From NCBI GenBank assembly GCA_964652265.1, contig CAZZAL010000004.1, positions 590-64,589 of the forward strand: a stretch of DNA of 64,000 nt, given 5' to 3'. Position 1 is the first letter of the stretch, and the number at the start of each line of letters is the position of its first letter. The notes under the pieces were generated by a model. It did no database searches and had not been told where the DNA came from. It saw only the letters and a program-made list of their open reading frames with translations. Made by a program: the position numbers and the translations under genes. This document shows, piece after piece, positions 25,226-54,074 of the stretch. This DNA is from an uncultured Planctomycetia bacterium. GTDB taxonomy: Bacteria > Omnitrophota > Gorgyraeia > Gorgyraeales > Gorgyraeaceae.

Positions 25226-25672
25226 TCAATGTAAAAACTGTGAGGTTAGCTCTTCTACAGCCTTGGAGACCTCGTCACTTAAGCCCTCTCCAAGCTTGTT
25301 AGACTTTGGCTTTACTCCTAATAGATAAATATCAGCATTCGTAGAAGATTTAAGATATTCTATCAAGAGCTTCGGAGATACATCATGCGTAGAAACCTTT
25401 CCCACTCGAAGATCGTCTCCTGAAAAAAGCCTAGCCTCCCCTGCCCCACCGTCAAATTGAATAGCGTCTACGATAATAATCACCTCAGGCTTTAATTTTG
25501 TTATAACACCTGTATAATTTTCAGGTGCGACTCCAGCGTCTATGACCTCGCAAGGAACCTTTCCTTTTATTGCTAAGGCAAGGTACGGGCCAACACCATC
25601 ATCCCCCCGGTCAATATTACCAATACAGAGCACCACTGTGCGTTCTGTTAAAAGAGATTTTAGATTAATCAT
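25226..25672 (-). CDS. hycI: hydrogenase maturation endopeptidase (HycI/HybD family)
   Basis: VVLCIGNIDRGDDGVGPYLA...DAIQFDG...STHDVS motifs. I prefer the ATG at 25672 to the track start at 25720. Confidence 0.8.
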   Translation of the reverse strand: MINLKSLLTERTVVLCIGNIDRGDDGVGPYLALAIKGKVPCEVIDAGVAPENYTGVITKLKPEVIIIVDAIQFDGGAGEARLFSGDDLRVGKVSTHDVSPKLLIEYLKSSTNADIYLLGVKPKSNKLGEGLSDEVSKAVEELTSQFLH

Positions 25673-25680
25673 GGATTTTA

Positions 25681-26283
25681 TTATGTCTCTAGAGTAATTT
25701 CTCGCCTGCACGTAGGGCAAAGCACCTTTATGCGATCCTGACGAGTTAGCTTCTCTGATTTTTCAACATTAAGATATGCCAATTTTAGATCTTTTAGTGC
25801 GGATAGATATGAAGTGGGGCTTGAGTATGCTAGTGGGCCAAGTTTTTTTGCGATCCATATTAAATGAACTTTTGCTCCTACCGTGCAACCACAGCCCTCG
25901 CATAAAACCAGGTCTTTTTCAACAGATTCAATGGCCTCGTTTCTGTCAAACACAGACAAGTCATCAAGCTTATTGGATAACTTTATGCCTTCCTGGGTGA
26001 TGCAATTTGCCTGGCATTGACCACAGAATATGCAATTGCCATAACGCAGGTTGAACTTTCTCATGGGAGGATTAGCGTCAATAACATCGGTCATTGTTAT
26101 AGCTCCCGGAGGACAGACCTCGCTACATGCGCCACACCCTACGCACTTCTCCTCATGATATTCTGGTTTTCCTCTATATCTCTTCTCAGGCACATGCGGC
26201 TTAAAAGGAAACTTTGACGTATAAGGTCCTTTGATCACCGCCTTTATTGCCTCAGCCAATTCTCGTAATTTCGGATATCGCAT
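25681..26283 (-). CDS. NuoI/MbhN/HycF-like 2x[4Fe-4S] subunit of the membrane-bound hydrogenase
   Basis: CVGCGACSEVCP and CIFCGQCQANC cluster motifs. A C-terminal Cys-rich extension is also present. Confidence 0.75.
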   Translation of the reverse strand: MRYPKLRELAEAIKAVIKGPYTSKFPFKPHVPEKRYRGKPEYHEEKCVGCGACSEVCPPGAITMTDVIDANPPMRKFNLRYGNCIFCGQCQANCITQEGIKLSNKLDDLSVFDRNEAIESVEKDLVLCEGCGCTVGAKVHLIWIAKKLGPLAYSSPTSYLSALKDLKLAYLNVEKSEKLTRQDRIKVLCPTCRREITLET

Positions 26284-26285
26284 AA

Positions 26286-26612
26286 TTATTTTCCGTCTTC
26301 AGCGTATTTATCGACTACGCTTTTCTCCCATAGTTTTACACCTGATTTATAAGCAGCCCGTGCCAGCGCATGAGCAGATACAGGCGAGGTCAATATCAAA
26401 AAGACCATGCATAAAAACGCCTTTATGCCCAATATTGAAAATCCATCTATAATGATAACTCCTAATAAAATACTGCAGGTCCCAAGGGTTATACATTTAG
26501 TAGCTGCCTGAAGACGATTGTATACATCAGGAAACCTCACAAGTCCGAGACACCCAATAAGATCAAAGAAAAGGCCAATAGATATAAAAACTATGCCGAC
26601 TGTATCAATCAT
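26286..26612 (-). CDS. MrpG/MnhG-like subunit (MbhC-like)
   Basis: 108 aa. GCLGLVRFPDVYNRLQAATKCITLG is the MnhG signature. Confidence 0.75.
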   Translation of the reverse strand: MIDTVGIVFISIGLFFDLIGCLGLVRFPDVYNRLQAATKCITLGTCSILLGVIIIDGFSILGIKAFLCMVFLILTSPVSAHALARAAYKSGVKLWEKSVVDKYAEDGK

Positions 26613-26979
26613 CGAATGATTTTCCTTCTAAAAATTTTGCCAGTGCTAATGTCGCTATAAAGCTCTGTAAAGCCCATGCAATCGCAATATCAATATACCA
26701 GCTCCTTCCAGTTGAAATGCCCATGATAGCGCAAAAACCGACTATCAGGATACCGAGCATATCAATAGTCACTGCCCTGTCTGCAGAAGTAGGGCCTCTC
26801 ATTATCCTGTATAAACATAAAATACATGCCAGTAAAAGAACATAAAACGCTCGCCTTAAAAAACCCAGAAACGGCATATCCTGACAGAAAAGTATAGACA
26901 AGGATCCAAACATAATTACAGCTAATGCTGCTAGAATAATAATCGCTCCTATTATATAACGAAACCTTTGTCGTCTCAT
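26605..26979 (-). CDS. MrpF/MnhF-like subunit (MbhB-like)
   Basis: 124 aa, 3 TM helices, RGPTSADRAVTIDMLG motif. Confidence 0.7.
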   Translation of the reverse strand: MRRQRFRYIIGAIIILAALAVIMFGSLSILFCQDMPFLGFLRRAFYVLLLACILCLYRIMRGPTSADRAVTIDMLGILIVGFCAIMGISTGRSWYIDIAIAWALQSFIATLALAKFLEGKSFDD

Positions 26980-27473
26980 TCTTCGAATATCCTCTTCAAG
27001 ATCCTTTCAAACTTTTCCACTATAAACTTTGTCGCCTTTATAACATCCTTATGCCTTACTTCGATCCAGTGCACGTACAAAAACCCTTTTTCTCTATCTA
27101 TATCAACAGTTAATGTCCCCGGCGTAAGCGTAATGGAATTCGCCAGAAACGTAAGCGCAGTATCTGATTTAAGAGAGGTCTTGACCTTTACTATGCCAGG
27201 ATGTATCGGCATATCAGGATGAATCACCCTGTACGCCACGTCAATATTAGCTTTAAAACATTCCCACATAAAAACAGGGACATAATACAAAAACCAGAGA
27301 TAACGACTTGCATGCGTCAAAAGATGCGGTCTTTTTACAAAAAAATCTCCTGTCATATACGCGACAAAGGCTGAAGCAAAAACGCCTACAACGATATGCT
27401 GCCAGTCGGGTACCCAATTCAGAAAAACCCAAGCAACGATCCCTAATACAAATAGAATAATTCGGCTCTTCAT
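26976..27473 (-). CDS. MrpE/MnhE-like subunit (MbhA-like)
   Basis: 165 aa with the SITLTPGTLTVDID motif. Confidence 0.7.
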   Translation of the reverse strand: MKSRIILFVLGIVAWVFLNWVPDWQHIVVGVFASAFVAYMTGDFFVKRPHLLTHASRYLWFLYYVPVFMWECFKANIDVAYRVIHPDMPIHPGIVKVKTSLKSDTALTFLANSITLTPGTLTVDIDREKGFLYVHWIEVRHKDVIKATKFIVEKFERILKRIFEE

Positions 27474-28975
27474 TATCTTATAGCTCCAAAAACTGTAGCA
27501 ATGTAATCTTTCTGCCCAGCCAACACCGTATCTTTTGCAATGTCAAGAAGATATCCGGAAATAGCCGGCAGGAGAAGCAGGCCTCCAACTAAACAAATAA
27601 CTGCCAGCACGACCATTGAAAACTTCATAAAAAACGGGCATTCTTTTATGTGGCTAAATGTCCCTTTTAACTCCCCGAAAAAGGCATAGCGCTGAACCTT
27701 CATAAAATAAGCCAGAGTCAGGATGCTTGCGAAAACTGCCCAGAATGCGTGCATAAAATGCTGCGCCTGGATACACGCGACAATAATAATCAATTTGCTC
27801 CAGAAGCCATTAAATGGTGGGACGCCCGCGATAGACATAGATCCTACAAGCGATGTATTTGCCGTAACTGGCATTTTCTCCTTCAACCCACCCATCTTCT
27901 GTAAATCCCTTGTCCCAGTAGAATATTCGATTGCGCCCGAATTCAAAAATAAGAGTGATTTAAACACAGAATGATTTAATAAATGAAACAACCCTCCCAG
28001 AATCCCTAGGGGAGTCCCTAGACCAATGCCAAGTATCACATAACCGATCTGATTTACAGAGCTATAGGCTAACAACCTTTTAAAATCCCACTGCCCTAGG
28101 GCAAGGGCCGCTCCGATAATAATCGACAATGTCCCTATGGTCATAAAAATCGATAAGATCTGCTGGCTTGCGCCCAGCACGCTAAAAAATACTCTTATCA
28201 ATGCATAAACTCCGAGGGATTTTATAAGTACTCCTGAAAGCATCGCTGAAATAGGCGCAGGCGCAGATGGATGGGCATCCGGAAGCCATGCATGGAAAGG
28301 AACAAGCGCTGATTTCAGGCCAAATCCCATAAGAAATAAAACGCTCACAAGCAATACTATACGAGACGGGCCTTTTTCAAGTAACTGGATTGCCATATCA
28401 GCCATGTTCAGTGTAGAAGTAAAGCTGTATAAAAACGCGATACCTAATAATATAAAGGTAGAAGCAAGGCTACCCATCACTGCATATTTAAAAGACGCCT
28501 CGAGCTCTTCATGCTCGGTACCGAATGCAACCAGAGAATAACTCGCAATCGCAGCAATCTCAAGAAATACATACAGGTTGAACATGTCACCGCTTATTAT
28601 CACGCCATTCATACCAGCAATCATCAATAAAAACAGACAATAAAAGAGCGATTTCTCCGTATACTTGTTCATATAATCTATGGAATAAACGCTTATGAGA
28701 AACGCGATGATATTAATCGTCACCAGCATGAAAACCGTAAGCCCATCCATGACCATTGCTATGCCTATCGGTGCTATCCAACCACCCACCCTATAAACAA
28801 TCGCGCCGTTCTCTTTAAACAGAAACACAGCATACACTGAGACGGCGGCTAAACAAAACGTAGCGATACTAGACAATATATCTGAAAATCCCTTTATCCT
28901 TTTCCCCAAAAGGGAATTCAAAAAAGCGCTCGCCAGCGGTATGGCAACAAATAATGGCAATATGTTCTGTGTCAT
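27473..28975 (-). CDS. MrpD/NuoM/NuoN-like antiporter subunit (MbhH-like)
   Basis: 500 aa, ~14 TM helices. WLPDAHPSAPAPISAMLSGVLIK is the proton-conducting-membrane-transporter signature. Confidence 0.8.
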   Translation of the reverse strand: MTQNILPLFVAIPLASAFLNSLLGKRIKGFSDILSSIATFCLAAVSVYAVFLFKENGAIVYRVGGWIAPIGIAMVMDGLTVFMLVTINIIAFLISVYSIDYMNKYTEKSLFYCLFLLMIAGMNGVIISGDMFNLYVFLEIAAIASYSLVAFGTEHEELEASFKYAVMGSLASTFILLGIAFLYSFTSTLNMADMAIQLLEKGPSRIVLLVSVLFLMGFGLKSALVPFHAWLPDAHPSAPAPISAMLSGVLIKSLGVYALIRVFFSVLGASQQILSIFMTIGTLSIIIGAALALGQWDFKRLLAYSSVNQIGYVILGIGLGTPLGILGGLFHLLNHSVFKSLLFLNSGAIEYSTGTRDLQKMGGLKEKMPVTANTSLVGSMSIAGVPPFNGFWSKLIIIVACIQAQHFMHAFWAVFASILTLAYFMKVQRYAFFGELKGTFSHIKECPFFMKFSMVVLAVICLVGGLLLLPAISGYLLDIAKDTVLAGQKDYIATVFGAIR

Positions 28976-28978
28976 AAA

Positions 28979-29317
28979 TTAACCTTTTAACCTGCGAATC
29001 TTTGTAATATCAAACGTCCCGTATTTTTCATAGACTCTAACCGCAATAGACGCTATCAAGGCCGTAACTGCAAGCCCTATAACTATGGCGGTTAAAACAA
29101 GCGCCTGCGGCAATGGATCGACCATATTAACTATCACCTGGTCAGGCGCATGTATGGGCGCACGGCCATGCATCCTGTATCCTACAAGTATGAAAAAAAG
29201 ATTCACGGCATACTCTGTTATAGCTATGCCTATAATAATCTTTATAAGATTTCGTTTTCTAAGTATACAATAGAGCCCTACACAAAAAAGTACTAAACAT
29301 AAAAAGTAAAGACTCAT
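28979..29317 (-). CDS. MrpC/NuoK-like subunit (MbhG-like)
   Basis: 112 aa, 3 TM helices. Position and size match MnhC/NuoK. Confidence 0.7.
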   Translation of the reverse strand: MSLYFLCLVLFCVGLYCILRKRNLIKIIIGIAITEYAVNLFFILVGYRMHGRAPIHAPDQVIVNMVDPLPQALVLTAIVIGLAVTALIASIAVRVYEKYGTFDITKIRRLKG

Positions 29318-29766
29318 TATTCCCCGCCCTTTTTAGGCAACTTGAAGGTTACCAGAATAATAAAAATAATAAAAAGACCCGCGCCTACCTTAAAACTTAT
29401 AGCCACATTATATAAAGGTATGAGCCCTGATGAAAAGAGCTCAAAGGGTTCGCCCTTAGCAATAAAATTCAAAAAGAAATATCCACTGGCAATACCAAGG
29501 ATCGCCAAAGTTACAAACATTATCGCGCCGAAGCTTTCAAAAAACGAAGCAACATTCTGGTTTACCTTTTTAAGCGCTGCGTCTTTTCCAAACGCGAGCA
29601 TAAGGTGTATGAAGGAAAGCGCAACAATCACCCCACCTGCAAAACCTCCACCAGGTGAAATATGGCCATGGCTGATAATATAGATACCAAACAAAAGTAT
29701 CAGTCCCACCGTAAGCCGCGTGATCGTCTTTACTATTAGCGTCATTCCTTTTCTGGGATCGTCCAT
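29317..29766 (-). CDS. MrpB/MnhB-domain subunit (MbhF-like)
   Basis: 149 aa with GHISPGGGFAGG. Confidence 0.65.
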   Translation of the reverse strand: MDDPRKGMTLIVKTITRLTVGLILLFGIYIISHGHISPGGGFAGGVIVALSFIHLMLAFGKDAALKKVNQNVASFFESFGAIMFVTLAILGIASGYFFLNFIAKGEPFELFSSGLIPLYNVAISFKVGAGLFIIFIILVTFKLPKKGGE

Positions 29767-30284
29767 TATTTCTTCCTTCCCACTTTCCTCATAACTGCCA
29801 GGACTCCAATCACCGCTGTAAAAAGAATGGTTGCTTCGCCCAAGGTGTCATACGCGCGGTAATCCAAGACTATCGCAGATACTAGATTTGTAGCTCCGGT
29901 TTGTTTCAAACCCTGAGTCAAAAAGGTCTGCGCCACCCTCATTATAGGCTCTCCAAACTGTGGCAGATCCTTCATGCAAAAATAGCCAAAAGCTAAAAAT
30001 ACGACAAGGAACGCAAACGTCATAAAGGTATTAAAAAACCAGCGTCCGCTCGTAGAAAACGGGAGGTCCTTCCTGATAGTAGCCCTTATCAATATTATTA
30101 CAACTAGGATCTCGACTACGAGCTGTGCGATCGCAAGGTCTGGCGCCTTAAGGATCAAAAATGCTAGAGACAGGCCAAGACCTACTGTACCTACTGCGAT
30201 AACAGATGATAGAAGATCTTTTGCCTTCACCGCTACTATTGCGCCTATAATCATAAATACTAAAAGTATCTGTAATTCAAGCAT
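29766..30284 (-). CDS. DUF4040/MnhB-N fusion subunit (MbhD/E-like, equivalent to the MrpA C-terminal part)
   Basis: 172 aa. NLVSAIVLDYRAYDTLGEATILF motif follows N-terminal DUF4040-like TM helices. Confidence 0.65.
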   Translation of the reverse strand: MLELQILLVFMIIGAIVAVKAKDLLSSVIAVGTVGLGLSLAFLILKAPDLAIAQLVVEILVVIILIRATIRKDLPFSTSGRWFFNTFMTFAFLVVFLAFGYFCMKDLPQFGEPIMRVAQTFLTQGLKQTGATNLVSAIVLDYRAYDTLGEATILFTAVIGVLAVMRKVGRKK

Positions 30285-30290
30285 CTTATA

Positions 30291-32090
30291 TTACCTCACA
30301 AGAGCAAAAAGAAAAATCATTATACCTAGTATGCACCATATAAGATATGTCGGTAATACGCCATTATGCAAATATTTAAATATACGTATAAAGAAAAATA
30401 CAAACTTCTTCCCGACCTCATATATATCAAAAAACTTTTTCTCTGCCTTTTTGTATATAGTTCTTATAAGCGGTAATTCTTTTATTGTATTGTAAAATTC
30501 TGTCCCGGAAAGCCTCATATCTTTTCCGAGGTCTTCTCCTCCTATATAAGAGCCTGTTTCTCTTATACCTTTAAAGTTGCCAGTCAGATACACCAGGACA
30601 CCAACGCCAAGCCCTATGGCTAAAAATAACGTAGCTTTTAAAGACGGCCACATGCCAATAAATCTTATATCCGACAGGATAGGCACTATAAAATGCTTTA
30701 AGGGGACTATATAGGCGAATATTCCAAATACGATACAAAGAGTAGCAAGTATTACAGGCGGAATCCACATACTCCAGGAAACTTCATCCCGCTGTTTGGC
30801 ATCTCCTGATTGCCGTTCATTCTTGGCCTTGCCCAAGAATATTGCATGTATAAATTTTATAAACGACGCCAGTGTAAGGCCACTACCAAACATAGCGGCT
30901 ACAATACAGAATATCCACAATACCCCGCCTGATTTGCCCTTTTCTATCAATCCCTGATAGACCATCCATTTTGAAAAGAAACCATTGAATGGCGGCACAC
31001 CCGATATTGACAGGGCTGCTATAAGCGCAGAAAAGAACGTTATCGGCATTATCTTGGCAAGACCACCAAGAGAATCTAAATCTGATGTCTTGGTTTTATG
31101 TTGAACATTGCCGCCTGAAAGAAAGAGACAGCTCTTATATAGCGTATTATTAAGCATGTGAAAAAGTCCGCCTGCAATACCTATCGGGTTGCCTGTGCCA
31201 AGTCCGAGCACCATATAGCCGACCTGGCTTACCGCATGATAACCAAGAAGCCTTTTGAAATCGTGCTGCACGAGTGCCATCATTACTGCTGCCACTATGG
31301 TAACAGCCCCGATTACCATAAGAAGCGCATAAGTATTGCCATCCAGTATAAACACATTCAATACCAACCTCGCCAGCAAATAAATGCCGAGTAATTTATC
31401 AAGGGACGCTGGCAGAAATGCAGTCACTGGCACTGGCGCCTCTTTTGCTGTATCAGGTATCCACGTGTGAAACGGCATTGCACCTGCCTTTGCAAACGCG
31501 CCTATGGCTATCAATAAAAATGCCCAGAAAGACAAAGAACTATCTATGGCTATCCTTATGCTGGAGAGATTTAAATCACCTGTAATAAGCCAGACAATAG
31601 CAAAACCCAAAATCATGAGGCTATCTGAACCACCTATTATTATAAAGGTCTTTTTGCTTGCACCTGCTGCAGCCGGACCAGCTACATTGATAAGCATATA
31701 TAAGGTAAACCCGAGGAAACCCCATGCTACTAGAAGTATCACGATATTATTAGAAAGGGCTGCCAGAAGAGAAAATCCAATGGTCCATATTACATTCGCA
31801 TAATACGAACGAAACTGTTTAAAAGAAGCCATGAACCGCAGCGAATACAGGCTTACCAGCGCCCCGAAAAATCCTATACCAAGCACGATAAATCTCGAAA
31901 GTCCATCAACGTATAGATAATCTGCATGGATAGGCGCCTTTGCAAATATTCTTATTGAGGCAATAAACAAATAAACAGCAATTGCGAGACTAAATCCCTC
32001 CACCAGCTTCCTGAACCTCTTAGGAATAAAAAGTACGAAGCTTCCCGCTAATATCGAAATCAAAATTGGCTGTAACAATATCTCCATCAT
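30291..32090 (-). CDS. NuoL/MrpA/HyfB-like large antiporter subunit
   Basis: 599 aa, >14 TM helices. FHTWIPDTAKEAPVPVTAFLPASLDK signature. Confidence 0.8.
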   Translation of the reverse strand: MMEILLQPILISILAGSFVLFIPKRFRKLVEGFSLAIAVYLFIASIRIFAKAPIHADYLYVDGLSRFIVLGIGFFGALVSLYSLRFMASFKQFRSYYANVIWTIGFSLLAALSNNIVILLVAWGFLGFTLYMLINVAGPAAAGASKKTFIIIGGSDSLMILGFAIVWLITGDLNLSSIRIAIDSSLSFWAFLLIAIGAFAKAGAMPFHTWIPDTAKEAPVPVTAFLPASLDKLLGIYLLARLVLNVFILDGNTYALLMVIGAVTIVAAVMMALVQHDFKRLLGYHAVSQVGYMVLGLGTGNPIGIAGGLFHMLNNTLYKSCLFLSGGNVQHKTKTSDLDSLGGLAKIMPITFFSALIAALSISGVPPFNGFFSKWMVYQGLIEKGKSGGVLWIFCIVAAMFGSGLTLASFIKFIHAIFLGKAKNERQSGDAKQRDEVSWSMWIPPVILATLCIVFGIFAYIVPLKHFIVPILSDIRFIGMWPSLKATLFLAIGLGVGVLVYLTGNFKGIRETGSYIGGEDLGKDMRLSGTEFYNTIKELPLIRTIYKKAEKKFFDIYEVGKKFVFFFIRIFKYLHNGVLPTYLIWCILGIMIFLFALVR

Positions 32091-33262
32091 TATCTCTTCA
32101 TCCGTGCTGTCTTTTCCTGGGACAGCCGGATCAGATCTTGGCCATCCATTATTTTCTTACCGCTCTTATGATCTACAACCGCCATTCTCTCTGTACAGCA
32201 ATAGCACGGATCCACTGCAGCTAAGATTATAGTAGCATCTGAAACTGTCTCGCCTATAACTGCTTTTTTATTAGAGAAGACGTTCATGAAGCTTGGCGCC
32301 CTTACCTTGTGACGGACAGGACTGTTTCCACCATCAGACATGATATAGTGAAATACCTCGCCACGCGGCGCCTCGTGTCTCCCAATACCCTCTCCAACCG
32401 GCATATCTTTTATATTAAGGTCTATCGGACCTTTTGGTATCTTATCAAGACACTGAAGTATTATATTTGTCGATTCATAAAGTTCCAAAAGTCTCACAAC
32501 TGCCTTTGAAAAAACTCCTCCGCCTTCAGCAGTTATGACTTTCCAGTCAACTTTATCATAAGCTGCGTAAGGATCATCCCGGCGTACATCAATAGCCACA
32601 CCTGAAGCCCTTGCTGTTGGCCCTACAACGGAATAATCATGCACATCTTGCTTTGTCAGCACGCCCACGTCTTCGGTCCTCGCTCGTATCACGGGATCAT
32701 CAATAACAGCACCTTTGAACATGTCAAATTTAGGTATCAAGCTCTTCAGTGTCTTTTTTATCCACGGGAAATCTGCTTCATCCAGATCCCTTCGCATGCC
32801 ACCTGGCTTAAACATGGCATAATGATTCCTGTTCCCAGTGATCCTTTCGAATATATCAAGGACCGGTTCCCTGTATTTCCACGCCCACATCCATACAGTG
32901 TTATATCCTAAAAAATGGCCCGCAAGGCCAACCCATAAAAGATGACTATGTATCCGTTCTAATTCTCCGATTATAGTACGTATATAAAGTGCTCTCTCTG
33001 GAACCTGGACTCCTAATAGATCATCAATAGCATTTGTATAGGCAAAAGGATGCGATGTCGAGCAGATCCCGCAAATCCTCTCGACCAGAAACGTTACTTG
33101 GTCATAGCTCTTGGACTCAGCTATCTTCTCGATAGCCCGGTGGTTATATCCAATCTCTATATCCATATCCACAACAGTCTCGCCGTCAACGTGCAACCTG
33201 AAAAACTCTGGCTCTTCCTGTAGTGGATGATAAGGACCTATTGGAATAATCTTTTTCGCCAT
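32090..33262 (-). CDS. group-4 [NiFe] hydrogenase large subunit (MbhL/EchE/HycE-like, NuoD homologue)
   Basis: N-terminal RICGICSTSH (RxCGxCxxxH) and C-terminal DPCYCCTER (DPCxxCxxR) Ni-Fe ligand motifs are both present. A ~32-aa tail follows, consistent with HycI processing. Confidence 0.9.
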   Translation of the reverse strand: MAKKIIPIGPYHPLQEEPEFFRLHVDGETVVDMDIEIGYNHRAIEKIAESKSYDQVTFLVERICGICSTSHPFAYTNAIDDLLGVQVPERALYIRTIIGELERIHSHLLWVGLAGHFLGYNTVWMWAWKYREPVLDIFERITGNRNHYAMFKPGGMRRDLDEADFPWIKKTLKSLIPKFDMFKGAVIDDPVIRARTEDVGVLTKQDVHDYSVVGPTARASGVAIDVRRDDPYAAYDKVDWKVITAEGGGVFSKAVVRLLELYESTNIILQCLDKIPKGPIDLNIKDMPVGEGIGRHEAPRGEVFHYIMSDGGNSPVRHKVRAPSFMNVFSNKKAVIGETVSDATIILAAVDPCYCCTERMAVVDHKSGKKIMDGQDLIRLSQEKTARMKR

Positions 33263-33265
33263 GCC

Positions 33266-33700
33266 TTACTCGTCCCTTCTTAAAGGATAATTCCCTTCAG
33301 GCCAATCGTCTTTTAAAAGTAGATGCTTCAGATTCGGGTGGTCTTTAAAATTCACTCCCAAGAGCTCGTGGATTTCTCTTTCTATCCACTCTGCACATTT
33401 CATCAGAGGTGTCAAACTATCTACTTGGAGGTCAGATTTATCCAAAACAACTCTCAACGAAACTATAAGTCCGATCTCGTCAACTGAAAAATGATAAAGT
33501 ATCTCGATTGCCTTTCGTGTATCCACTCCGGACGCGATTGAAAACCTTGCCCTTACGTCCTTAAAGAGGTACCGAGCTATCTTTGGCAATATCTCTTTTT
33601 TAATAGTAACGTAGACACGCTTCTCTGAACGATCTTCAATCTCCAGCATGTCTCCTCCGGCCCGCACCTTTATATTTTCTATAACGTCTATTCTTCTCAT
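33266..33700 (-). CDS. NuoC/MbhK-like subunit
   Basis: The 30-kDa-subunit-like ...CAEWIEREIHELLGVNFKDHPNLKHLLL... is present. I prefer the ATG at 33700, which forms an ATGA overlap with the upstream gene, to the track start at 33769. Confidence 0.75.
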   Translation of the reverse strand: MRRIDVIENIKVRAGGDMLEIEDRSEKRVYVTIKKEILPKIARYLFKDVRARFSIASGVDTRKAIEILYHFSVDEIGLIVSLRVVLDKSDLQVDSLTPLMKCAEWIEREIHELLGVNFKDHPNLKHLLLKDDWPEGNYPLRRDE

Positions 33701-34122
33701 TTCTTGCCCTGTAGTTTTTGAATCAATTTCACAATACCCAGTATCATTGCCTCTGGTTTTGGCGGACATCCTGGTATATAGACATTGACTGGAAGTAAAG
33801 AATCCACTGGATCCGGCGTATTATACCCTTTTGCAAAAATACCTTGGTCACAAGAACACGCGCCTATCGCAATCACAACACACGGCTTTGGCGCCTGATC
33901 ATATACAGCCTTTACCCTAGGTATTGTCTTTAGATTCAACGCACCTGTCACCAGTATTGCATCAGCATGCTTCACGCTTCCGACAAGCAGTATGCCAAAC
34001 CTCTCTACGTCAAAACGCGGGGTCAAAAGATCCAGTATCTCTATGTCGCAATTATTGCAACTGCCTGTTGAAAGGTGATAAACCCAAATCGATTTAGTTA
34101 ATGCCTTAAGTTTTAAACTCAT
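33697..34122 (-). CDS. [NiFe] hydrogenase small subunit (NuoB/MbhJ-like)
   Basis: GSCNNCD, GACSC and GCPPKPE Cys ligands for one [4Fe-4S] cluster. Confidence 0.85.
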   Translation of the reverse strand: MSLKLKALTKSIWVYHLSTGSCNNCDIEILDLLTPRFDVERFGILLVGSVKHADAILVTGALNLKTIPRVKAVYDQAPKPCVVIAIGACSCDQGIFAKGYNTPDPVDSLLPVNVYIPGCPPKPEAMILGIVKLIQKLQGKK

Positions 34123-34123
34123 G

Positions 34124-35029
34124 CTACATCCCCAATGTTGCCAGTAAAACTGCGACGCTAGCTATAAGCGTCATCTTGCCCCAGAAAAATCTCATTGCCT
34201 GATCAATCCTCACGCGAGGATTTGTATTCCTCATAAGAATTATAACCACCAATAAAATCACGTACTTCCATATGCTAAACCCGCCCCAAAATACCGTGGT
34301 CAAAAATACTGGGAGCGCGACCATCATCATTGTCTTTGTGAGTTTCAGAATAGCCAAAAGCATACCTGAATATTCTATATAAGCCCCTGCCATTATCTCT
34401 GTCTCTGCCTCGCCCATATCAAACGGCACAAGTCCCAATTTTGCCTGCATGCAAAATATCGCTACCAAAATCGCCAGAACTCCAGAGAAATTTGAAACAA
34501 ACGCGCCATTTGCTGCCTGAAAAGCAATTAAATCCGTCAACCTCAATAACCCGTTGCTTTTAATAATAGGCACGATAAGGGCTATAATAAAAGGTAATTC
34601 ATAAGCAAGGATTAATTTTATCTCTCTTGATGCGCCAAGAGATGCCAGTGGATTGCCGCTTGCTGATGAGCCCAATATAAGTGCGATCGCCGGCAATGTC
34701 AATAGATACAGGATAACGATAAGGTCTCCTGTAAAACCACTCGCACCCAATTCTATATTCGCCAACCATATAAAGGTAGATGCCAGTATAACTGCGCTAA
34801 GTCCCATGAGCGGAGAAAAGAAAAATACCAGCTTTGAAGCTCCCCTTGGAACAGTTATCTCCTTTATACTCAATTTCACCAGATCAACAAAAGGCTGATA
34901 CCATGGCGGTCCCACCCTCCATTGTACACGGGCAGTTACCTTGCGATCTATCCAGCTCGCTAGGAGGCCTACTGCAGCTGTAAATAAAAATCCAGGAAAT
35001 ACTATGAAATTAAATAAATGTCTCATCAT
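34124..35029 (-). CDS. NuoH/MbhM/HycD-like membrane subunit
   Basis: ~300 aa, 8 TM helices, RKVTARVQWRVGPP motif. I prefer the ATG at 35029, which forms an ATGA overlap with the upstream gene. Confidence 0.8.
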   Translation of the reverse strand: MMRHLFNFIVFPGFLFTAAVGLLASWIDRKVTARVQWRVGPPWYQPFVDLVKLSIKEITVPRGASKLVFFFSPLMGLSAVILASTFIWLANIELGASGFTGDLIVILYLLTLPAIALILGSSASGNPLASLGASREIKLILAYELPFIIALIVPIIKSNGLLRLTDLIAFQAANGAFVSNFSGVLAILVAIFCMQAKLGLVPFDMGEAETEIMAGAYIEYSGMLLAILKLTKTMMMVALPVFLTTVFWGGFSIWKYVILLVVIILMRNTNPRVRIDQAMRFFWGKMTLIASVAVLLATLGM

Positions 35030-35508
35030 GGGTGAAGCTTCTTCCACGCCTTTGCGTACACGGCTATATTTTTACCTACTAAATATATATCGTCTTTTTC
35101 TGAGGGTTTTACATCTATAAATTTCACCGCACCATCAACAGAGCAAGTCTTCGCGCAGAGCGGCTCATCCTTCTTGCAACGATCAATACATTCATCGCAC
35201 TGCGACGTTATATAAGGTACTGTCTCTAGTGGTATTGTGCCAAAAGGGCATGCCAGGCTACATGACTTGCACGATACGCAGCGCATTGTGTAGCGCTTCA
35301 CTGTACCGTCAGAATCTTTTTCCAGTGCCTCTTTTGGACACGCGTTTATGCAAGGTGCCTCTTCGCACTTCCTGCAGATATACCTAAACTGGCCTATCTC
35401 TCTAAGACGGATCACTCCGTCATTTCCAGGGTGATAATAGTAACTGCACTTTGCTGTAGGTTTTTCGCAACTATATAATTTTTCAAGGTCTACAAGTAAG
35501 CGCTTCAT
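35026..35508 (-). CDS. poly-ferredoxin-like Fe-S protein (HycB/CooF-like)
   Basis: 160 aa with CRKCEEAPCINACP, CVSCKSCSLACP and CDECIDRC...C motifs. Confidence 0.7.
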   Translation of the reverse strand: MKRLLVDLEKLYSCEKPTAKCSYYYHPGNDGVIRLREIGQFRYICRKCEEAPCINACPKEALEKDSDGTVKRYTMRCVSCKSCSLACPFGTIPLETVPYITSQCDECIDRCKKDEPLCAKTCSVDGAVKFIDVKPSEKDDIYLVGKNIAVYAKAWKKLHP

Positions 35509-35511: not shown

Positions 35512-36336
35512 CTAATCCCAGATTTCGTGGATATTGCTTATCTTATCGTACCTGAATACTGGCCCGTCTTTACAGACATAGAAATTTCCGAGCCTGCAAT
35601 GACCGCACTTGCCAAAACCACAACTCATATTCTTTTCCATCGATAGATATATCTGTTCTTCCTTGTATCCTATCTCGATAAGCTTAAAAGTGCTGAATTT
35701 CATCATGATCGGAGGGCCACATACCACCGCAACGCTATTCTTAAGATCTATCTTTAGGTTGTCCAGGGTAGTAGTTACAAGACCTTCTTTGCCCTTCCAG
35801 TCCTTGTCTTTCTTATCAACCGTGATCCTGAAATTGACCTTTTTATCTATCTTCTGCCATTTATCCAGCACGCTTTCCTTATATATAATGTCAGATGGGG
35901 TCCTGGAACCGCAGCAAAATGTTATGCTCTTGTATTTCTTCACATCATGGACCAGGGCTAAGAATAGAGATCTTAACGGTGCCAGTCCCACGCCTCCTCC
36001 GACCAATAAAACATCTTTTCCTTCATAATCAGAAAGAGGGTATTCGTTTCCATAAGGTCCGCGTAGCCCCACTGTATCGCCTTTTTTTAGATCATGGATC
36101 TTTCCGGTAATCTGACCTGCCTTCATAATACTAATCTCCAGCTTTTGTTTTTCATGCGGAGAAGAAGAAGGAGTAAAAGGTGCCTCGCCCAGACCTGGCA
36201 CAGTCATCTCCATAAACTGGCCTGCTTTAAAAGACAGCGGGGTTTCTGGTTTAAGAGTAACTGTCTTGATCGTAGAACTTTCTTCGCAGATACCCAAAAC
36301 CTCTGTCTTTACCGGAGCATAAGGATTATCTATCAT
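35512..36336 (-). CDS. FNR-fold FAD/NAD(P)-binding oxidoreductase with a C-terminal [2Fe-2S] (sulfhydrogenase gamma HydG / AsrB / PyrK-like)
   Basis: 274 aa. LLVGGGVGLAPL nucleotide-binding loop and CGFGKCGHCRLGNFYVC cluster motif. Confidence 0.75.
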   Translation of the reverse strand: MIDNPYAPVKTEVLGICEESSTIKTVTLKPETPLSFKAGQFMEMTVPGLGEAPFTPSSSPHEKQKLEISIMKAGQITGKIHDLKKGDTVGLRGPYGNEYPLSDYEGKDVLLVGGGVGLAPLRSLFLALVHDVKKYKSITFCCGSRTPSDIIYKESVLDKWQKIDKKVNFRITVDKKDKDWKGKEGLVTTTLDNLKIDLKNSVAVVCGPPIMMKFSTFKLIEIGYKEEQIYLSMEKNMSCGFGKCGHCRLGNFYVCKDGPVFRYDKISNIHEIWD

Positions 36337-37375: not shown

Positions 37376-37395
37376 TTTGTGAAAATTATCACAAA
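37376..37395. promoter_or_regulatory. CRP/FNR-type palindrome TTTGTGA-aaatta-TCACAAA in the operon leader
   Basis: An exact TGTGA-N6-TCACA core lies 8 nt upstream of the first start codon and downstream of the predicted -10 element. Confidence 0.45.
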
Positions 37396-37428: not shown

Positions 37429-37456
37429 ATTATAATACAAAGCTAGTTTATGTCAA
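37429..37456 (-). promoter_or_regulatory. consensus sigma70 promoter of the hydrogenase operon
   Basis: Minus strand reads TTGACA-16 nt-TATAAT. Confidence 0.6.
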
Positions 37457-37889: not shown

Positions 37890-37929
37890 ATTCCCCTCCA
37901 TCTTAAATTTACATACCAAAAGTGTAAAG

Positions 37930-39007: not shown

Positions 39008-39061
39008 TGTTTCTCCTTACGGCAAGTTCAAGGCTGAACATTAAACTATATAAACTCAAAA

Positions 39062-41136: not shown

Positions 41137-41342
41137 CTGGTCTCTTCTAATATGCGCAATGTCTCTTCTGCTTCTTTTGGATCAAGTTTTTCTATTGCAA
41201 AACCTGCGTGAACCATCACATAATCGCCTATCTTAGGCCTAGTCAAGAAATTGACAGCGATCCTGCGTTTTACTGTCCCGGCAGAGACCACTGCCCTATC
41301 ACCCTCTATCTTTAAAATCTTCATTGGTATTGCCAAACACAT
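41133..41342 (-). CDS. hypC: hydrogenase maturation chaperone HypC
   Basis: 69 aa with the MCLAIPMKI N-terminus. Confidence 0.9.
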   Translation of the reverse strand: MCLAIPMKILKIEGDRAVVSAGTVKRRIAVNFLTRPKIGDYVMVHAGFAIEKLDPKEAEETLRILEETR

Positions 41343-41344
41343 CT

Positions 41345-54071: not shown

Positions 54072-54074
54072 CTT

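What the first reader, a model, noticed from the sequence alone, without database searches (positions are those of the whole stretch)
25226..35029. Mrp-linked group-4 [NiFe] hydrogenase with two antiporter-like subunits and a non-canonical gene order
- Fourteen contiguous, mostly overlapping genes encode, in order: NuoH-like, NuoB-like small subunit, NuoC-like, NuoD-like large subunit, a 599-aa NuoL/MrpA-like subunit, DUF4040/MnhB-N, MnhB, MnhC, a 500-aa MnhD-like subunit, MnhE, MnhF, MnhG, a NuoI-like ferredoxin subunit, and HycI.
- The large subunit keeps both Ni-Fe ligand pairs (RICGICSTSH and DPCYCCTER) and a cleavable tail. It should therefore be a true hydrogenase, not an Mbx/Mbs-type sulfur reductase.
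- In the Pyrococcus furiosus mbhA-N paradigm the Mrp genes come first and there is a single MrpD-like subunit.
- Here the catalytic module comes first, a complete Mrp set is inserted between the large subunit and the NuoI-like subunit, and there are two large antiporter-like subunits.
- This places the complex architecturally between the Mbh, FHL-2/Hyf and complex I arrangements.
Basis: partly seen in the sequence, partly recalled or inferred. Interest (0 to 1): 0.6.

Follow-up and report, generated by a model that had tools for sequence, protein, structure and literature searches.

The report
NAD(P)H-linked Mrp-coupled [NiFe] hydrogenase operon

Summary
The 14 genes are present exactly as described, and the large subunit is a true [NiFe] hydrogenase.

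Three points change the reading.

1. **The unit is 17 genes, not 14.** It begins with homologues of the beta and gamma subunits of Pyrococcus sulfhydrogenase I (the NADPH-oxidising module) and a HycB/CooF-type ferredoxin. These are tightly packed onto the NuoH-like gene. They lie behind the only perfect sigma-70 consensus promoter in the window and a Rex (NADH-sensor) operator.

2. **The gene order is standard for a large clade.**
   - All 53 related loci with enough upstream DNA keep the three-gene input module.
   - 35 of 46 keep the exact downstream order.
   - Published MAG studies already call such Omnitrophota enzymes 'group 4g, Mrp-linked'. They also describe an 'Mbh-Mrp-oxidoreductase' type with AsrA/AsrB/CooF-like genes in Saganbacteria and Elusimicrobia.

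3. **The complex is a mosaic.** It combines an FHL-like peripheral arm, an MBS/Mrp-type membrane arm (a split MrpA plus MrpB-G) and an SHI-type diaphorase.

The best reading is a Rex-controlled, ion-coupled NAD(P)H:H+ oxidoreductase. This is inferred from sequence and context, not shown. I rate it a variant of a known kind that has never been characterised biochemically, of moderate interest.

The parts
37429..37456 (-). Sigma-70-type promoter, TTGACA-16 nt-TATAAT, in the 114-nt gap upstream of the first gene
   Evidence: It matches the consensus at 12 of 12 positions and is the only such site in the 64-kb window; none occurred in 100 shuffles. Similar -35/-10 boxes appear upstream of hydB-like genes in related loci.
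37377..37394 (-). Rex-operator-like palindrome TTGTGATAATTTTCACAA, 10 nt upstream of the hydB-like start
   Evidence: It has one mismatch to TTGTGAA-W4-TTCACAA (consensus from the PMC2883068 abstract). It is the only match with 2 or fewer mismatches in the window. Of 58 related loci, 24 have a site with 1 or fewer mismatches within 200 nt upstream of hydB, against a background of 1e-6 per position. rex genes lie directly upstream in L025, L029 and L091.
36333..37367 (-). SHI-beta / ShyB / AsrA-like iron-sulfur subunit (344 aa)
   Evidence: Pfam Fer4_22, 2e-29. NCBIfam sulfhyd_ShyB, 1e-54. Best solved structure is 9nez_B, sulfhydrogenase 1 beta, 3e-39 over the full length.
35512..36336 (-). SHI-gamma / AsrB-like FAD, NAD(P)H and [2Fe-2S] subunit (274 aa)
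   Evidence: Pfam FAD_binding_6, NAD_binding_1 and DHODB_Fe-S_bind. Best solved structure is 9nez_C, sulfhydrogenase 1 gamma, 1e-60, aligned end to end with the cofactor motifs conserved. The motifs are conserved across the family.
35026..35508 (-). HycB/CooF/HydN-type poly-[4Fe-4S] connector ferredoxin (160 aa)
   Evidence: Pfam Fer4_11. Best solved matches are HDCR HycB4/HycB3 and FHL HycB. Its stop codon overlaps the NuoH-like start as ATGA.
34124..35029 (-). NuoH/HycD/MbhM-like membrane anchor (ORF extends to 35047)
   Evidence: Pfam NADHdh, 7e-60.
33697..34122 (-). NuoB-like hydrogenase small subunit (141 aa)
   Evidence: Pfam Oxidored_q6, 2e-27. The CxxC...C...CPP cysteines are visible in the translation.
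33266..33700 (-). NuoC-like subunit (ORF extends to 33769; the likely start overlaps the NuoB stop as ATGA)
   Evidence: Pfam Complex1_30kDa, 2e-25. Coordinates.
32090..33262 (-). [NiFe] hydrogenase large subunit (390 aa) with both CxxC pairs and a 31-aa C-terminal tail
   Evidence: Pfam Complex1_49kDa + NiFeSe_Hases. Best solved matches are MbhL 6cfw_L (4.5e-88) and HycE 7z0s_E (1.5e-83); the tail aligns with the HycE tail. The motifs are conserved in 80 of 80 loci.
30291..32090 (-). MrpA-N / MbsH'-like antiporter-like subunit (599 aa) with a C-terminal extension
   Evidence: Best solved match is MrpA 7qru_A (1e-51). It aligns over its full length to MBS subunit 6u8y_X and to NCBIfam PRK08668. 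K201, K232, H311, K319 and K374 are kept, but the TM5 Glu is replaced by Gly124.
29766..30284 (-). MbhD+MbhE fusion, equivalent to the C-terminal domain of MrpA (172 aa)
   Evidence: Pfam MbhD + MbhE. NCBIfam hits map to residues ~605-790 of MrpA models.
29317..29766 (-). MrpB/MnhB-like subunit (149 aa)
   Evidence: Pfam MnhB, 1e-24.
28979..29317 (-). MrpC/NuoK-like subunit (112 aa)
   Evidence: Pfam Oxidored_q2, 8e-28.
27473..28975 (-). MrpD/MbhH-like antiporter-like subunit (500 aa)
   Evidence: Best solved matches are MbhH 6cfw_H (4e-83) and MrpD 7qru_D (4e-78). E139, K221, K252, H331, H335, K339 and K394 are all present and conserved in the family.
26976..27473 (-). MrpE/MnhE-like subunit (165 aa)
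   Evidence: Pfam MNHE, 9e-46.
26605..26979 (-). MrpF-like subunit (124 aa)
   Evidence: Pfam MrpF_PhaF, 5e-17.
26286..26612 (-). MrpG/MnhG-like subunit (108 aa)
   Evidence: Pfam PhaG_MnhG_YufB, 1e-27.
25681..26283 (-). NuoI/HycF-like 2x[4Fe-4S] subunit (200 aa) with a Cys-rich C-terminal extension
   Evidence: NCBIfam 'formate hydrogenlyase complex iron-sulfur subunit', 6e-29. Best solved match is HycF 7z0s_F, 2e-19.
25226..25672 (-). HycI-type maturation endopeptidase (ORF extends to 25720)
   Evidence: Pfam HycI. NCBIfam hycI, 9e-31.
38663..42481 (-). Upstream maturation genes: hypF (C-terminal half only), hypC, hypD, hypE, hypA. They are accessory and lie outside the Rex/promoter-delimited unit.
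   Evidence: Pfam HypF_C/HypF_C_2, HypD, AIRS/AIRS_C and HypA. HypC is identified by reading its translation (MCLAIPMKI...), with no family search. HypF matches only positions 382-740 of TIGR00143.

Best explanation
[quoted passage not shown] It is transcribed as one 17-gene unit, from the hydB-like gene to hycI.

**Proposed electron path (inferred).** NAD(P)H passes electrons to the FAD and [2Fe-2S] cluster of the SHI-gamma-like subunit. They then move through the [4Fe-4S] clusters of the SHI-beta-like subunit, the HycB-type connector, the HycF/NuoI-like subunit and the single cluster of the NuoB-like small subunit. They end at the Ni-Fe site of the large subunit, where protons are reduced to H2. 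The path could also run in reverse.

**Proposed coupling (inferred).** The NuoH-like anchor would couple this near-equilibrium redox reaction to ion movement through an MBS/Mrp-type membrane arm. That arm is a split MrpA (599 aa + 172 aa) plus MrpB, C, D, E, F and G. It would have two antiporter-like proton channels and a Na+/H+ exchange module.

**Proposed regulation (inferred).** A Rex operator between the promoter and the first gene would keep the operon off until the NADH/NAD+ ratio rises. The preferred physiological role is therefore a redox valve that disposes of pyridine-nucleotide reducing equivalents as H2. The ion gradient would either help drive the reaction or be built by it, depending on H2 partial pressure.

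**Shown:** gene content, order, motif integrity, conservation of the linkage and conservation of the operator.
**Inferred:** physical assembly of beta/gamma with the membrane complex, the donor, ion coupling, direction of the reaction and Rex binding.
For: - **Input-module homology.** The beta- and gamma-like proteins match full-length P. furiosus SHI beta and gamma (9nez_B 3e-39; 9nez_C 1e-60). The FAD, NAD(P)H and 2Fe-2S motifs are kept and conserved across the family.
- **Conserved linkage.** HydB-HydG-HycB sits directly before NuoH in every one of the 53 related loci with at least 2.7 kb upstream. One, L056, was flagged by the script only because a second hydrogenase cluster lies further upstream. 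This holds down to 67% large-subunit identity. It also holds at 58% (L084), 48% (L085) and 42% (L091) identity.
- **Co-divergence.** Identities of the three proteins fall together with those of the hydrogenase subunits.
- **Packing.** hydB/hydG overlap by 4 nt, hydG and hycB are 3 nt apart, and hycB/nuoH share an ATGA overlap.
- **Connector type.** HycB/CooF-type ferredoxins link partner enzymes to hydrogenases in FHL and HDCR, and they are the best solved matches here. The NuoI-like subunit is HycF-like.
- **Promoter and operator.** The unique 12/12 promoter and the Rex box lie immediately upstream of hydB. The box recurs at the same place in 24-27 of 58 loci, against a background of 1e-6 per position. 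rex genes are adjacent in L025, L029 and L091.
- **Modular membrane arm.** Relatives carry 0, 1, 2 or 3 antiporter-like subunits, while the beta/gamma-HycB-catalytic core is constant.
- **Independent proposal.** A 2026 study predicted with AlphaFold 3 that SHI-beta/gamma homologues wire into group-4b complexes (PMC13582414).
- **Thermodynamics (established values).** E0' of H+/H2 is -414 mV and of NAD(P)+/NAD(P)H is -320 mV. The reaction is therefore close to equilibrium at about 10 Pa H2 and could plausibly be coupled in either direction.
Against: - No biochemical, transcript or structural data exist for any member. Assembly of beta/gamma onto the membrane complex rests on gene context only.
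- MBH-type enzymes take electrons from ferredoxin directly at the NuoI-like subunit, and nothing here excludes that.
- Published Omnitrophota reconstructions assume ferredoxin as the donor (PMC8542988).
- Rex also controls ferredoxin-dependent and bifurcating hydrogenases in other phyla, so the operator does not prove an NADH substrate.
- Rex senses NADH, whereas SHI gamma uses NADPH.
- No rex gene is present in the 64-kb window.
- About half of the related loci lack a recognisable box at this spacing.
- In the most distant relatives (L085, L091) the gamma-like protein has a degenerate NAD-binding motif.
- The 599-aa subunit lacks the conserved TM5 glutamate, so it may not be a normal proton channel.
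Confidence: 0.55

Rival explanations
1. It is a ferredoxin-dependent, H2-evolving, Na+-translocating Mrp-Mbh that works like P. furiosus MBH. The SHI-beta/gamma-like and HycB-like proteins form a separate soluble enzyme, for example an NAD(P)H:ferredoxin or sulfide-dehydrogenase-like oxidoreductase, which is merely co-transcribed.
For: - The large subunit's best solved relative is MbhL.
- MrpD-, E-, F- and G-like subunits match MBH/Mrp.
- The literature assigns Omnitrophota enzymes of this kind to 'group 4g, ferredoxin-coupled (putative)' (PMC8542988, PMC10066038, PMC5037454).
- A NuoI-like subunit is enough for ferredoxin docking in MBH (established from PDB 6CFW).
Against: - The trio is invariably linked and translationally coupled to nuoH across 42-92% large-subunit identity.
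- HycB-type proteins are normally built-in connectors rather than free enzymes.
- Relatives that have lost every antiporter subunit still keep the trio.
Confidence: 0.2
2. It is the same complex working physiologically as an uptake enzyme. H2 oxidation would reduce NAD(P)+ and export ions, giving an energy-conserving H2:NAD(P)+ oxidoreductase that supplies reductant for acetogenic or lithotrophic growth.
For: - H2 to NAD(P)+ is exergonic by about 18 kJ/mol under standard conditions (established potentials). That is enough for roughly one translocated ion.
- Many Gorgyraia and Velamenicoccia Omnitrophota are predicted acetogens with Wood-Ljungdahl genes and 4g hydrogenases (PMC10066038).
- SHI itself works physiologically in the H2-to-NADPH direction (established for P. 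furiosus).
Against: - A Rex operator predicts induction when NADH is already in excess. That fits disposal of reductant better than its production.
- At environmental H2 concentrations the driving force vanishes.
- No Wood-Ljungdahl genes were seen among the ORFs scanned in this window; several ORFs were not scanned.
Confidence: 0.25
3. It is an electron-confurcating or bifurcating complex. Reduced ferredoxin, docking at the HycB- or HycF-like subunit, and NAD(P)H together would drive H2 formation.
For: - A branched Fe-S network with SHI-beta/gamma homologues was proposed for related group-4b clusters from AlphaFold 3 models (PMC13582414).
- The connector carries 15 cysteines, enough for at least three clusters.
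Against: - The Fdh-like third branch present in those 4b clusters and in Saganbacteria is absent from the window. It is also not conserved upstream in relatives.
- The SHI gamma flavin is not known to bifurcate.
- No second flavin or NuoF/HydB-type bifurcating module is encoded.
Confidence: 0.1
4. It is a sulfur- or polysulfide-reducing complex of the MBS/MBX or 'sulfhydrogenase' type.
For: - The membrane arm has the MBS composition, with H and H' subunits (PMC7684303).
- The beta subunit of SHI was historically linked to S0 reduction in vitro.
Against: - Both Ni-Fe CxxC pairs, the cleavable tail and HycI are intact and conserved in 80 of 80 loci.
- MbsL matches far less well than MbhL or HycE (2e-54 against 4.5e-88).
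Confidence: 0.03

Closest known systems
Pyrococcus furiosus MBH (group 4d, PDB 6CFW)
   Same: - True [NiFe] site.
- NuoB/C/D/H/I-like core.
- MrpD-like subunit (MbhH is the best solved match of the 500-aa protein, 4e-83).
- Homologues of MrpE, F, G, B and C and of MbhD/E.
- Large subunit about 43% identical.
   Different: - In MBH the mrp-like genes come first and there is a single antiporter-like subunit.
- MBH has no MrpA-N/H' subunit, no HycB-type connector and no NAD(P)H module.
- The donor in MBH is ferredoxin.
- The window's family does not cluster with MbhL in the rough tree.
Pyrococcus furiosus MBS/MBX (PDB 6U8Y)
   Same: It has two antiporter-like subunits, one of them a ~600-aa H'-type with a C-terminal extension. 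The 599-aa protein aligns over its full length to 6u8y_X. The rest of the Mrp-derived arm is also shared (PMC7684303).
   Different: - The MBS catalytic subunit has lost its Ni ligands and reduces polysulfide, whereas here the ligands are intact.
- MBS gene order is mrp-first.
- MBS has no beta/gamma or HycB-like subunits.
Escherichia coli formate hydrogenlyase FHL-1 / Hyf (group 4a, PDB 7Z0S)
   Same: - A HycB-type connector and a HycF-like NuoI subunit (best solved match).
- A HycI protease.
- A large-subunit C-terminal tail that aligns with the HycE tail.
- A partner enzyme wired in through HycB.
   Different: - The FHL partner is formate dehydrogenase, not an NAD(P)H module.
- The FHL membrane arm is HycC/HycD (plus HyfE-type subunits in Hyf), with no Mrp small subunits.
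- HycE is a NuoC-NuoD fusion.
- Large-subunit identity is only about 39%.
Thermococcus onnurineus Fdh2-Mfh2-Mnh2 and Codh-Mch-Mnh3 (group 4b, Mrp-linked formate/CO respiration)
   Same: The concept is the same: a soluble oxidoreductase plus a CooF/HycB-type ferredoxin, a group-4 hydrogenase and an Mrp module in one cluster (HydDB description in PMC5037454; recalled gene content).
   Different: - The partner here is SHI beta/gamma, not Fdh or CODH.
- The Mrp genes here are inserted inside the hydrogenase block.
- Sequence relationship was not testable here because no reference sequences were available.
MAG-described 'Mbh-Mrp-oxidoreductase' clusters (Saganbacteria RX5A, Elusimicrobia) and group-4b clusters with SHI-beta/gamma
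   Same: - AsrA-like, AsrB-like and CooF-like genes lie next to a group-4 hydrogenase with two Mrp antiporter-like subunits.
- The closest relatives were stated to be Omnitrophica and Zixibacteria (PMC6349859 Supplementary Note 5; 10.1101/765248).
- SHI-beta/gamma homologues have been proposed to feed group-4 complexes (PMC13582414).
   Different: - Those clusters also carry a molybdopterin (Fdh-like) protein. None is present here or conserved in the Omnitrophota loci.
- The 4b clusters have HyfE/HyfC-type arms rather than a full Mrp set.
Pyrococcus furiosus sulfhydrogenase I (group 3b, PDB 9NEZ)
   Same: Beta and gamma subunits are homologous over their full length. The FAD, NAD(P)H and Fe-S motifs are conserved.
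   Different: SHI is soluble, with a group-3 alpha/delta hydrogenase dimer. Here beta/gamma are attached genetically to a membrane-bound group-4 enzyme.
Stand-alone Mrp Na+/H+ antiporter (PDB 7QRU, 6Z16, 7D3U)
   Same: All seven subunits are present in the canonical A-B-C-D-E-F-G order. MrpA is the best solved match of the 599-aa protein and MrpD the second best of the 500-aa protein.
   Different: - MrpA is split into two genes.
- The TM5 Glu of the MrpA-N part is replaced by Gly.
- The set is embedded in a hydrogenase operon rather than standing alone.

Membership tests
Group 4 (energy-converting) [NiFe] hydrogenases | Large subunit related to NuoD, with N- and C-terminal CxxC Ni-Fe ligand pairs | tested here: met
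   RICGICSTSH and DPCYCCTER are present. Pfam gives Complex1_49kDa + NiFeSe_Hases. The motifs are conserved in 80 of 80 loci.
Group 4 (energy-converting) [NiFe] hydrogenases | NuoB-like small subunit with a single cluster, plus NuoC-, NuoI- and NuoH-like partners | tested here: met
   Pfam and NCBIfam hits for all four.
Group 4 (energy-converting) [NiFe] hydrogenases | C-terminal extension removed by a HycI-type endopeptidase | tested here: met
   A 31-aa tail follows the motif's Arg and aligns with the HycE tail. A hycI gene is the last gene of the operon. Cleavage itself has not been shown.
Group 4d (MBH type, ferredoxin-coupled, Mrp-linked) | Large subunit clusters with MbhL | tested here: not met
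   Identity to MbhL is about 43%. In a rough NJ tree of 133 sequences the family forms its own clade with P0124, apart from the MbhL cluster. Deep nodes of that tree are unreliable.
Group 4d (MBH type, ferredoxin-coupled, Mrp-linked) | Single antiporter-like subunit, mrp-like genes first, no extra input module | tested here: not met
   There are two antiporter-like subunits. The mrp set lies between the large subunit and the NuoI-like gene. Three input-module genes lie upstream.
Group 4g (HydDB 'ferredoxin-coupled, putative') | Assignment by the HydDB classifier or sequence-similarity network | not testable with these tools
   No HydDB tool or reference set was available. Other Omnitrophota Mrp-linked enzymes were assigned to 4g (PMC8542988, PMC10066038). 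Group 4g is described as loosely clustered and polyphyletic (PMC5037454, PMC13582414).
Group 4b (formate/CO-respiring, Mrp-linked) | Formate dehydrogenase or CO dehydrogenase partner in the cluster | tested here: not met
   No molybdopterin or CODH gene lies near the operon or is conserved upstream in relatives.
Group 4b (formate/CO-respiring, Mrp-linked) | HycB/CooF-type connector plus an Mrp module | tested here: met
   A Fer4_11 protein lies directly before nuoH, and a full Mrp set is present.
MBS/MBX sulfane-sulfur reductase | Catalytic subunit lacks the Ni-Fe cysteine ligands | tested here: not met
   All four cysteines are present and conserved. MbsL matches only at 2e-54.
MBS/MBX sulfane-sulfur reductase | Two antiporter-like subunits (H and H'), with H' carrying TMH15, helix HL and TMH16 | tested here: inconclusive
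   The 599-aa protein aligns to 6u8y_X over residues 9-596 and has a C-terminal extension of about 140 aa. The helix HL geometry was not modelled.
Mrp antiporter module | MrpA-G homologues, all present, in the order A-B-C-D-E-F-G | tested here: met
   Present as 599 aa + 172 aa (MrpA N- and C-terminal domains), then MnhB, MnhC, MrpD, MnhE, MrpF and MnhG.
Mrp antiporter module | Conserved charged residues of both antiporter-like subunits | tested here: inconclusive
   The MrpD-like subunit has all of them. The MrpA-N-like subunit keeps the Lys and His residues but has Gly in place of the TM5 Glu in 74 of the 75 family members whose alignment covers that position.
SHI-type NAD(P)H diaphorase module (beta/gamma of group 3b hydrogenases; AsrA/AsrB) | Beta-type Fer4_22 poly-ferredoxin, plus a gamma subunit with FAD, NAD(P)H and 2Fe-2S sites | tested here: met
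   9nez_B at 3e-39 and 9nez_C at 1e-60. The motifs GGGVGLAP, CGxGKCGHC, YxCKDGP, EAPFTPSS and RGPYG are conserved.
SHI-type NAD(P)H diaphorase module (beta/gamma of group 3b hydrogenases; AsrA/AsrB) | NAD(P)H oxidation activity and physical attachment to the hydrogenase | not testable with these tools
   This needs biochemistry or a multimer structure. Only conserved gene linkage is available.
Rex regulon | Operator TTGTGAA-W4-TTCACAA in the promoter region | tested here: met
   The site has one mismatch and lies between the -10 box and the start codon. It is conserved in 24-27 of 58 loci.
Rex regulon | A rex gene in the genome, and NADH-sensitive binding | tested here: inconclusive
   No rex gene lies in the 64-kb window. 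rex is adjacent to the operon in L025, L029 and L091. Binding was not testable.

The most novel reading that the evidence does not exclude
The operon encodes a reversible, ion-translocating NAD(P)H:H+ oxidoreductase. It would be the first group-4 (complex-I-like) hydrogenase to use pyridine nucleotides directly, through a grafted sulfhydrogenase beta/gamma module. It would be switched on by Rex when NADH accumulates. This would be a new coupling site that lets fermenters and syntrophs vent NAD(P)H as H2 without flavin-based bifurcation, either paying for or gaining an ion gradient. It would be widespread in Omnitrophota and neighbouring candidate phyla.
Probability: 0.45. Interest if true: 0.7.

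Novelty: new variant of a known kind. Interest (0 to 1): 0.5.

Why it matters
How anaerobes re-oxidise NAD(P)H to H2 is a long-standing bioenergetic question, because the reaction is uphill unless H2 is very low. The known answers are electron-confurcating [FeFe] hydrogenases and Rnf combined with ferredoxin-dependent hydrogenases.

A complex-I-like hydrogenase that takes NAD(P)H directly and is tied to an Mrp ion module would be a third answer. It would also be a natural example of the modular evolution proposed for MBH, MBS and complex I, since it joins a soluble NAD(P)H module, a hydrogenase core and a complete antiporter.

The operon is abundant in Omnitrophota, a globally distributed uncultured phylum. 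Metabolic models of that phylum currently treat this enzyme as ferredoxin-dependent.

The conserved Rex box gives a cheap experimental handle: EMSA or a reporter assay. It also provides a testable prediction for metatranscriptomes.

Tried and rejected
- **Fdh/CODH or molybdopterin partner.** I looked for one, as in group 4b and Saganbacteria, in the window and upstream of hydB in about 50 relatives. The upstream genes vary (a ~610-aa multi-pass membrane protein read as CPBP-type protease from its sequence, a PfkB-like sugar kinase, glutamine synthetase, hyp genes); only the PfkB call in L084 carries a Pfam hit and none of the sampled ORFs was family-searched. No such partner is conserved.
- **NIL-ferredoxin and UPF0280 genes (37919..37485, 38661..37933) as part of the unit.** Rejected. 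They lie beyond the 114-nt gap that holds the promoter and Rex box, and they are shared only by relatives with more than 80% identity.
- **Sulfur-reductase (MBS/MBX) reading.** Rejected on the intact Ni ligands.
- **Formal subgroup assignment.** Not possible without HydDB or reference sequences. I could only show separation from MbhL and HycE in a rough NJ tree and cite literature assignments.
- **Genomic context of the nearest non-family representatives (P0121, P0127, P0128, P0129).** The contigs are too short to be informative.
- **rex gene in the window.** None found.
- **Literature on NAD(P)H-linked Mrp-Mbh biochemistry.** Nothing found.
- **Complex modelling against MBH/MBS.** Not attempted, because the structure tool folds single chains only.

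Full report
**Observation**

The window carries 14 tightly packed ORFs on the minus strand between 35047 and 25226.
- NuoH-like (NADHdh, 7e-60)
- NuoB-like (Oxidored_q6)
- NuoC-like (Complex1_30kDa)
- the large subunit (Complex1_49kDa + NiFeSe_Hases)
- a 599-aa Proton_antipo_M protein
- an MbhD+MbhE fusion
- MnhB
- a NuoK/MnhC-like protein
- a 500-aa Proton_antipo_M protein
- MnhE, MrpF and MnhG
- a two-cluster ferredoxin
- HycI

Gaps are 6 nt or less, or the genes overlap. The large subunit has RICGICSTSH and DPCYCCTER followed by 31 residues. Both CxxC pairs and a tail of 31-47 residues are kept in all 80 related loci fetched. The tail aligns with the cleaved tail of E. coli HycE.

Three more genes sit on the same strand immediately upstream. 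The hydB-like and hydG-like genes overlap by 4 nt. The hydG-like and hycB-like genes are 3 nt apart. The hycB-like stop overlaps the nuoH-like ATG as ATGA.

- **The 344-aa protein.** It matches Fer4_22 and NCBIfam sulfhyd_ShyB/HydB. Its best solved relative is the beta subunit of P. furiosus sulfhydrogenase I (9nez_B, 3e-39, full length).
- **The 274-aa protein.** It is an FAD/NAD(P)H/[2Fe-2S] protein whose best solved relative is SHI gamma (9nez_C, 1e-60). The two align end to end, with the flavin, nucleotide and cluster motifs intact. These motifs are conserved across the family.
- **The 160-aa protein.** It is a Fer4_11 HycB/CooF/HydN-type poly-ferredoxin. Its best solved relatives are the HycB subunits of HDCR and FHL.

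**Operon boundary and regulation**

- The largest gap in the whole stretch is the 114 nt upstream of the hydB-like gene.
- That gap holds the only perfect TTGACA-16-TATAAT in the 64-kb window; none occurred in 100 shuffles.
- Ten nucleotides before the start codon lies the palindrome TTGTGATAATTTTCACAA. It differs at one position from the Rex operator TTGTGAA-W4-TTCACAA (consensus quoted in the abstract of PMC2883068). It is the only match with 2 or fewer mismatches in the window.
- In 58 related loci with enough upstream DNA, 24 have a site with 1 or fewer mismatches and 27 a site with 2 or fewer. Most lie 18-62 nt before hydB.
- The background frequency of sites with 1 or fewer mismatches is 1e-6 per position over 1.0 Mb of the same loci.
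- rex genes lie directly upstream of hydB in L025, L029 and L091. None is in the window.

I conclude that the transcription unit is hydB-like to hycI (17 genes). It is probably de-repressed when the NADH/NAD+ ratio rises. Rex binding is inferred, not shown.

**Conservation**

The large subunit's closest relatives (up to 92% identity) are all from Candidatus Omnitrophota MAGs and SAGs, plus a few bins labelled Elusimicrobiota or unclassified.

I ran tblastn of 20 window proteins against 80 species-level loci.
- HydB-HydG-HycB precedes NuoH in every one of the 53 loci with at least 2.7 kb upstream. One, L056, was flagged by the script only because a second hydrogenase cluster lies further upstream.
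- Of 46 loci with at least 7.6 kb downstream of the large subunit, 35 have exactly the window's order (34 counted directly, plus L056).
- Eight of the 46 add a third antiporter-like gene; in L030, the one inspected, a 206-aa ORF comes with it.
- Three of the 46 have a short arm without the Mrp small subunits (L080).

In the library clustered at 50% identity, the family collapses to two representatives (59% and 58% identity). The next neighbours are at 48% or less.
- The 58% representative has the identical 17-gene order (L084).
- The 48% neighbour keeps HydB-HydG-HycB-NuoH-B-C-D-NuoI but has no antiporter genes (L085).
- A 42% relative has rex-HydB-HydG-Fd-NuoH-B-C-D (L091).
- A 43% relative has the same HycB-H-B-C-D-[MrpA..G]-I order. 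However, it has lost its Ni ligands, and the cut ORF upstream of it looks molybdopterin-oxidoreductase-like from its translation, though it was not family-searched (L092).

The order is therefore characteristic of a broad clade. The beta/gamma-HycB-catalytic core is the constant part, and the membrane arm is modular.

**Anatomy of the complex**

- **Peripheral arm: FHL-like.** The NuoI-like subunit's best solved match is HycF (7z0s_F, 2e-19). The connector is HycB-type. The tail and protease are HycE/HycI-like.
- **Membrane arm: a complete Mrp.** The 599-aa protein's best solved match is MrpA (7qru_A, 1e-51). It aligns over its full length to the MBS H' subunit (6u8y_X). The 172-aa protein maps to residues ~605-790 of MrpA models. 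MrpA is therefore split into two genes and is followed by B, C, D, E, F and G.
- **Comparison with solved complexes.** The MBS structure paper describes this two-subunit arrangement, with helix HL clamping H and H', as shared by MBS and Mrp and reduced in MBH (PMC7684303).
- **Charged residues.** The 500-aa MrpD-like subunit keeps every canonical charged residue. The 599-aa subunit keeps the Lys and His residues, but the TM5 Glu is Gly in 74 of the 75 family members whose alignment covers that position. I cannot explain this.
- **Large-subunit relationships.** It is about 43% identical to MbhL and 39% to HycE. In a rough NJ tree the family, together with the antiporter-less P0124, forms its own clade apart from both.

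**Mechanism**

The most economical reading is a linear electron path. It runs from NAD(P)H through the FAD and [2Fe-2S] cluster of gamma, the clusters of beta, the HycB-like connector, the HycF-like subunit and the NuoB-like cluster to the Ni-Fe site.

The NuoH-like subunit would couple this path to an MBS/Mrp-type ion-translocating arm. With E0' of -320 mV for NAD(P)H and -414 mV for H2, the reaction is near equilibrium at roughly 10 Pa H2. It could therefore either consume or build an ion gradient.

The Rex operator favours a role as a valve for excess reducing equivalents.

The donor, the assembly of beta/gamma onto the complex, ion coupling and direction are all inferences from homology, conserved linkage and established potentials.

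The rival readings are:
- a plain ferredoxin-dependent MBH with a co-transcribed soluble enzyme;
- physiological H2 uptake with NAD(P)+ reduction;
- a confurcating enzyme;
- a sulfur reductase, which the intact Ni site excludes.

**Prior knowledge**

- Omnitrophota MAG studies list 'group 4g NiFe hydrogenase, Mrp-linked' and assume a ferredoxin donor (PMC8542988, PMC10066038).
[quoted passage not shown] A 2026 study finds it polyphyletic (PMC13582414).
- Matheus Carnevali et al. described an 'enigmatic' group-4 enzyme in Saganbacteria. It has two Mrp antiporters, asrA-like, asrB-like and cooF-like genes and a molybdopterin protein. Omnitrophica and Zixibacteria are its closest relatives (PMC6349859, Supplementary Note 5).
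- Meheust et al. named an 'Mbh-Mrp-oxidoreductase type' in Elusimicrobia (10.1101/765248).
- The 2026 study reports SHI-beta/gamma homologues beside degenerate Fdh-like proteins in group-4b clusters and proposes bifurcation.
- I found no biochemical work on an NAD(P)H-linked Mrp-hydrogenase.

**Verdict**

The feature is real and intact. It is a variant of the known energy-converting hydrogenases: a hydrogenase head, an MBS/Mrp arm and an SHI diaphorase, without the molybdopterin protein. It is common in public genomes and has been sighted before in MAG papers, but it is functionally uncharacterised. Its predicted donor and its Rex control have not been discussed for Omnitrophota.

Interest is moderate (0.5). 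A specialist would not be startled by the gene content. However, the NAD(P)H-coupled, ion-linked reading is testable and would matter if true.

Noticed in passing
window 37377-37394 and 37429-37456 (minus strand): A near-perfect Rex operator and the window's only perfect sigma-70 consensus promoter lie just upstream of the hydB-like gene. The operator recurs at the same place in 24-27 of 58 related loci, some of which have an adjacent rex gene.
   Followed up: yes
window 30291-32090 (599-aa subunit, residue 124): The TM5 glutamate, conserved in NuoL/M/N, is glycine here and in 74 of the 75 family members whose alignment covers that position. The Lys and His residues of the central axis are kept. 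I did not check whether MbsH' shares this.
   Followed up: partly
window 41345-42481: The hypF gene encodes only the C-terminal Kae1-like half (378 aa; positions 382-740 of the TIGR00143 model). The upstream ORF (42543-43577) is not the missing N-terminal part. A 58%-identity relative (L084) has a full-length 747-aa HypF.
   Followed up: partly
window 37482-38661: A NIL-domain ferredoxin and a UPF0280/PRK04334 protein sit between hypA and the operon. They are conserved only in relatives with more than 80% identity. From memory, similar pairs are linked to sulfide-dependent homocysteine synthesis in methanogens; I did not verify this.
   Followed up: partly
L030 11172-15072; L080 11206-13601; L085 5808-12011: The membrane arm is modular among relatives. 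Eight of the 46 loci have three antiporter-like genes (L030, the one inspected, also carries a 206-aa ORF). The short form has one antiporter-like subunit, which in L080 follows a 215-aa ORF. One relative, next to Rnf genes, has none. All keep the beta/gamma-HycB core.
   Followed up: partly
L092 3-11696: A 43%-identity relative from a high-GC organism has the same HycB-H-B-C-D-[MrpA..G]-I order. Its 'large subunit' has lost all four Ni-ligand cysteines, making it Ehr/Mbx-like. The cut ORF upstream of it looks molybdopterin-oxidoreductase-like from its translation; it was not family-searched.
   Followed up: partly
L085 6839-7720; L091 6000-6812: In the two most distant beta/gamma-linked relatives the gamma-like protein has a degenerate GGxGxxP nucleotide-binding motif, and no NAD_binding_1 Pfam hit is on record. 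These versions may not bind NAD(P)H.
   Followed up: no
L056 1-5541: A second, divergent NuoH/NuoB/NuoD-like cluster lies directly upstream of the operon in one Omnitrophota-like genome. It is followed by a 623-aa protein that reads from its sequence as a NuoI-like/GltD-like fusion (no family search).
   Followed up: no
L030 19626-20822; L080 14192-15388: In some relatives a conserved 398-aa gene of unknown identity follows the NuoI-like gene, in the position taken by hycI in the window.
   Followed up: no
window 48675-55601 and 20142-24751: Two tandem secretin genes (500 and 853 aa) lie near a PilM/PilN fusion. Elsewhere an OEP plus AcrB-type RND efflux pair sits on the plus strand just downstream of the operon. 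Neither is related to the finding.
   Followed up: no
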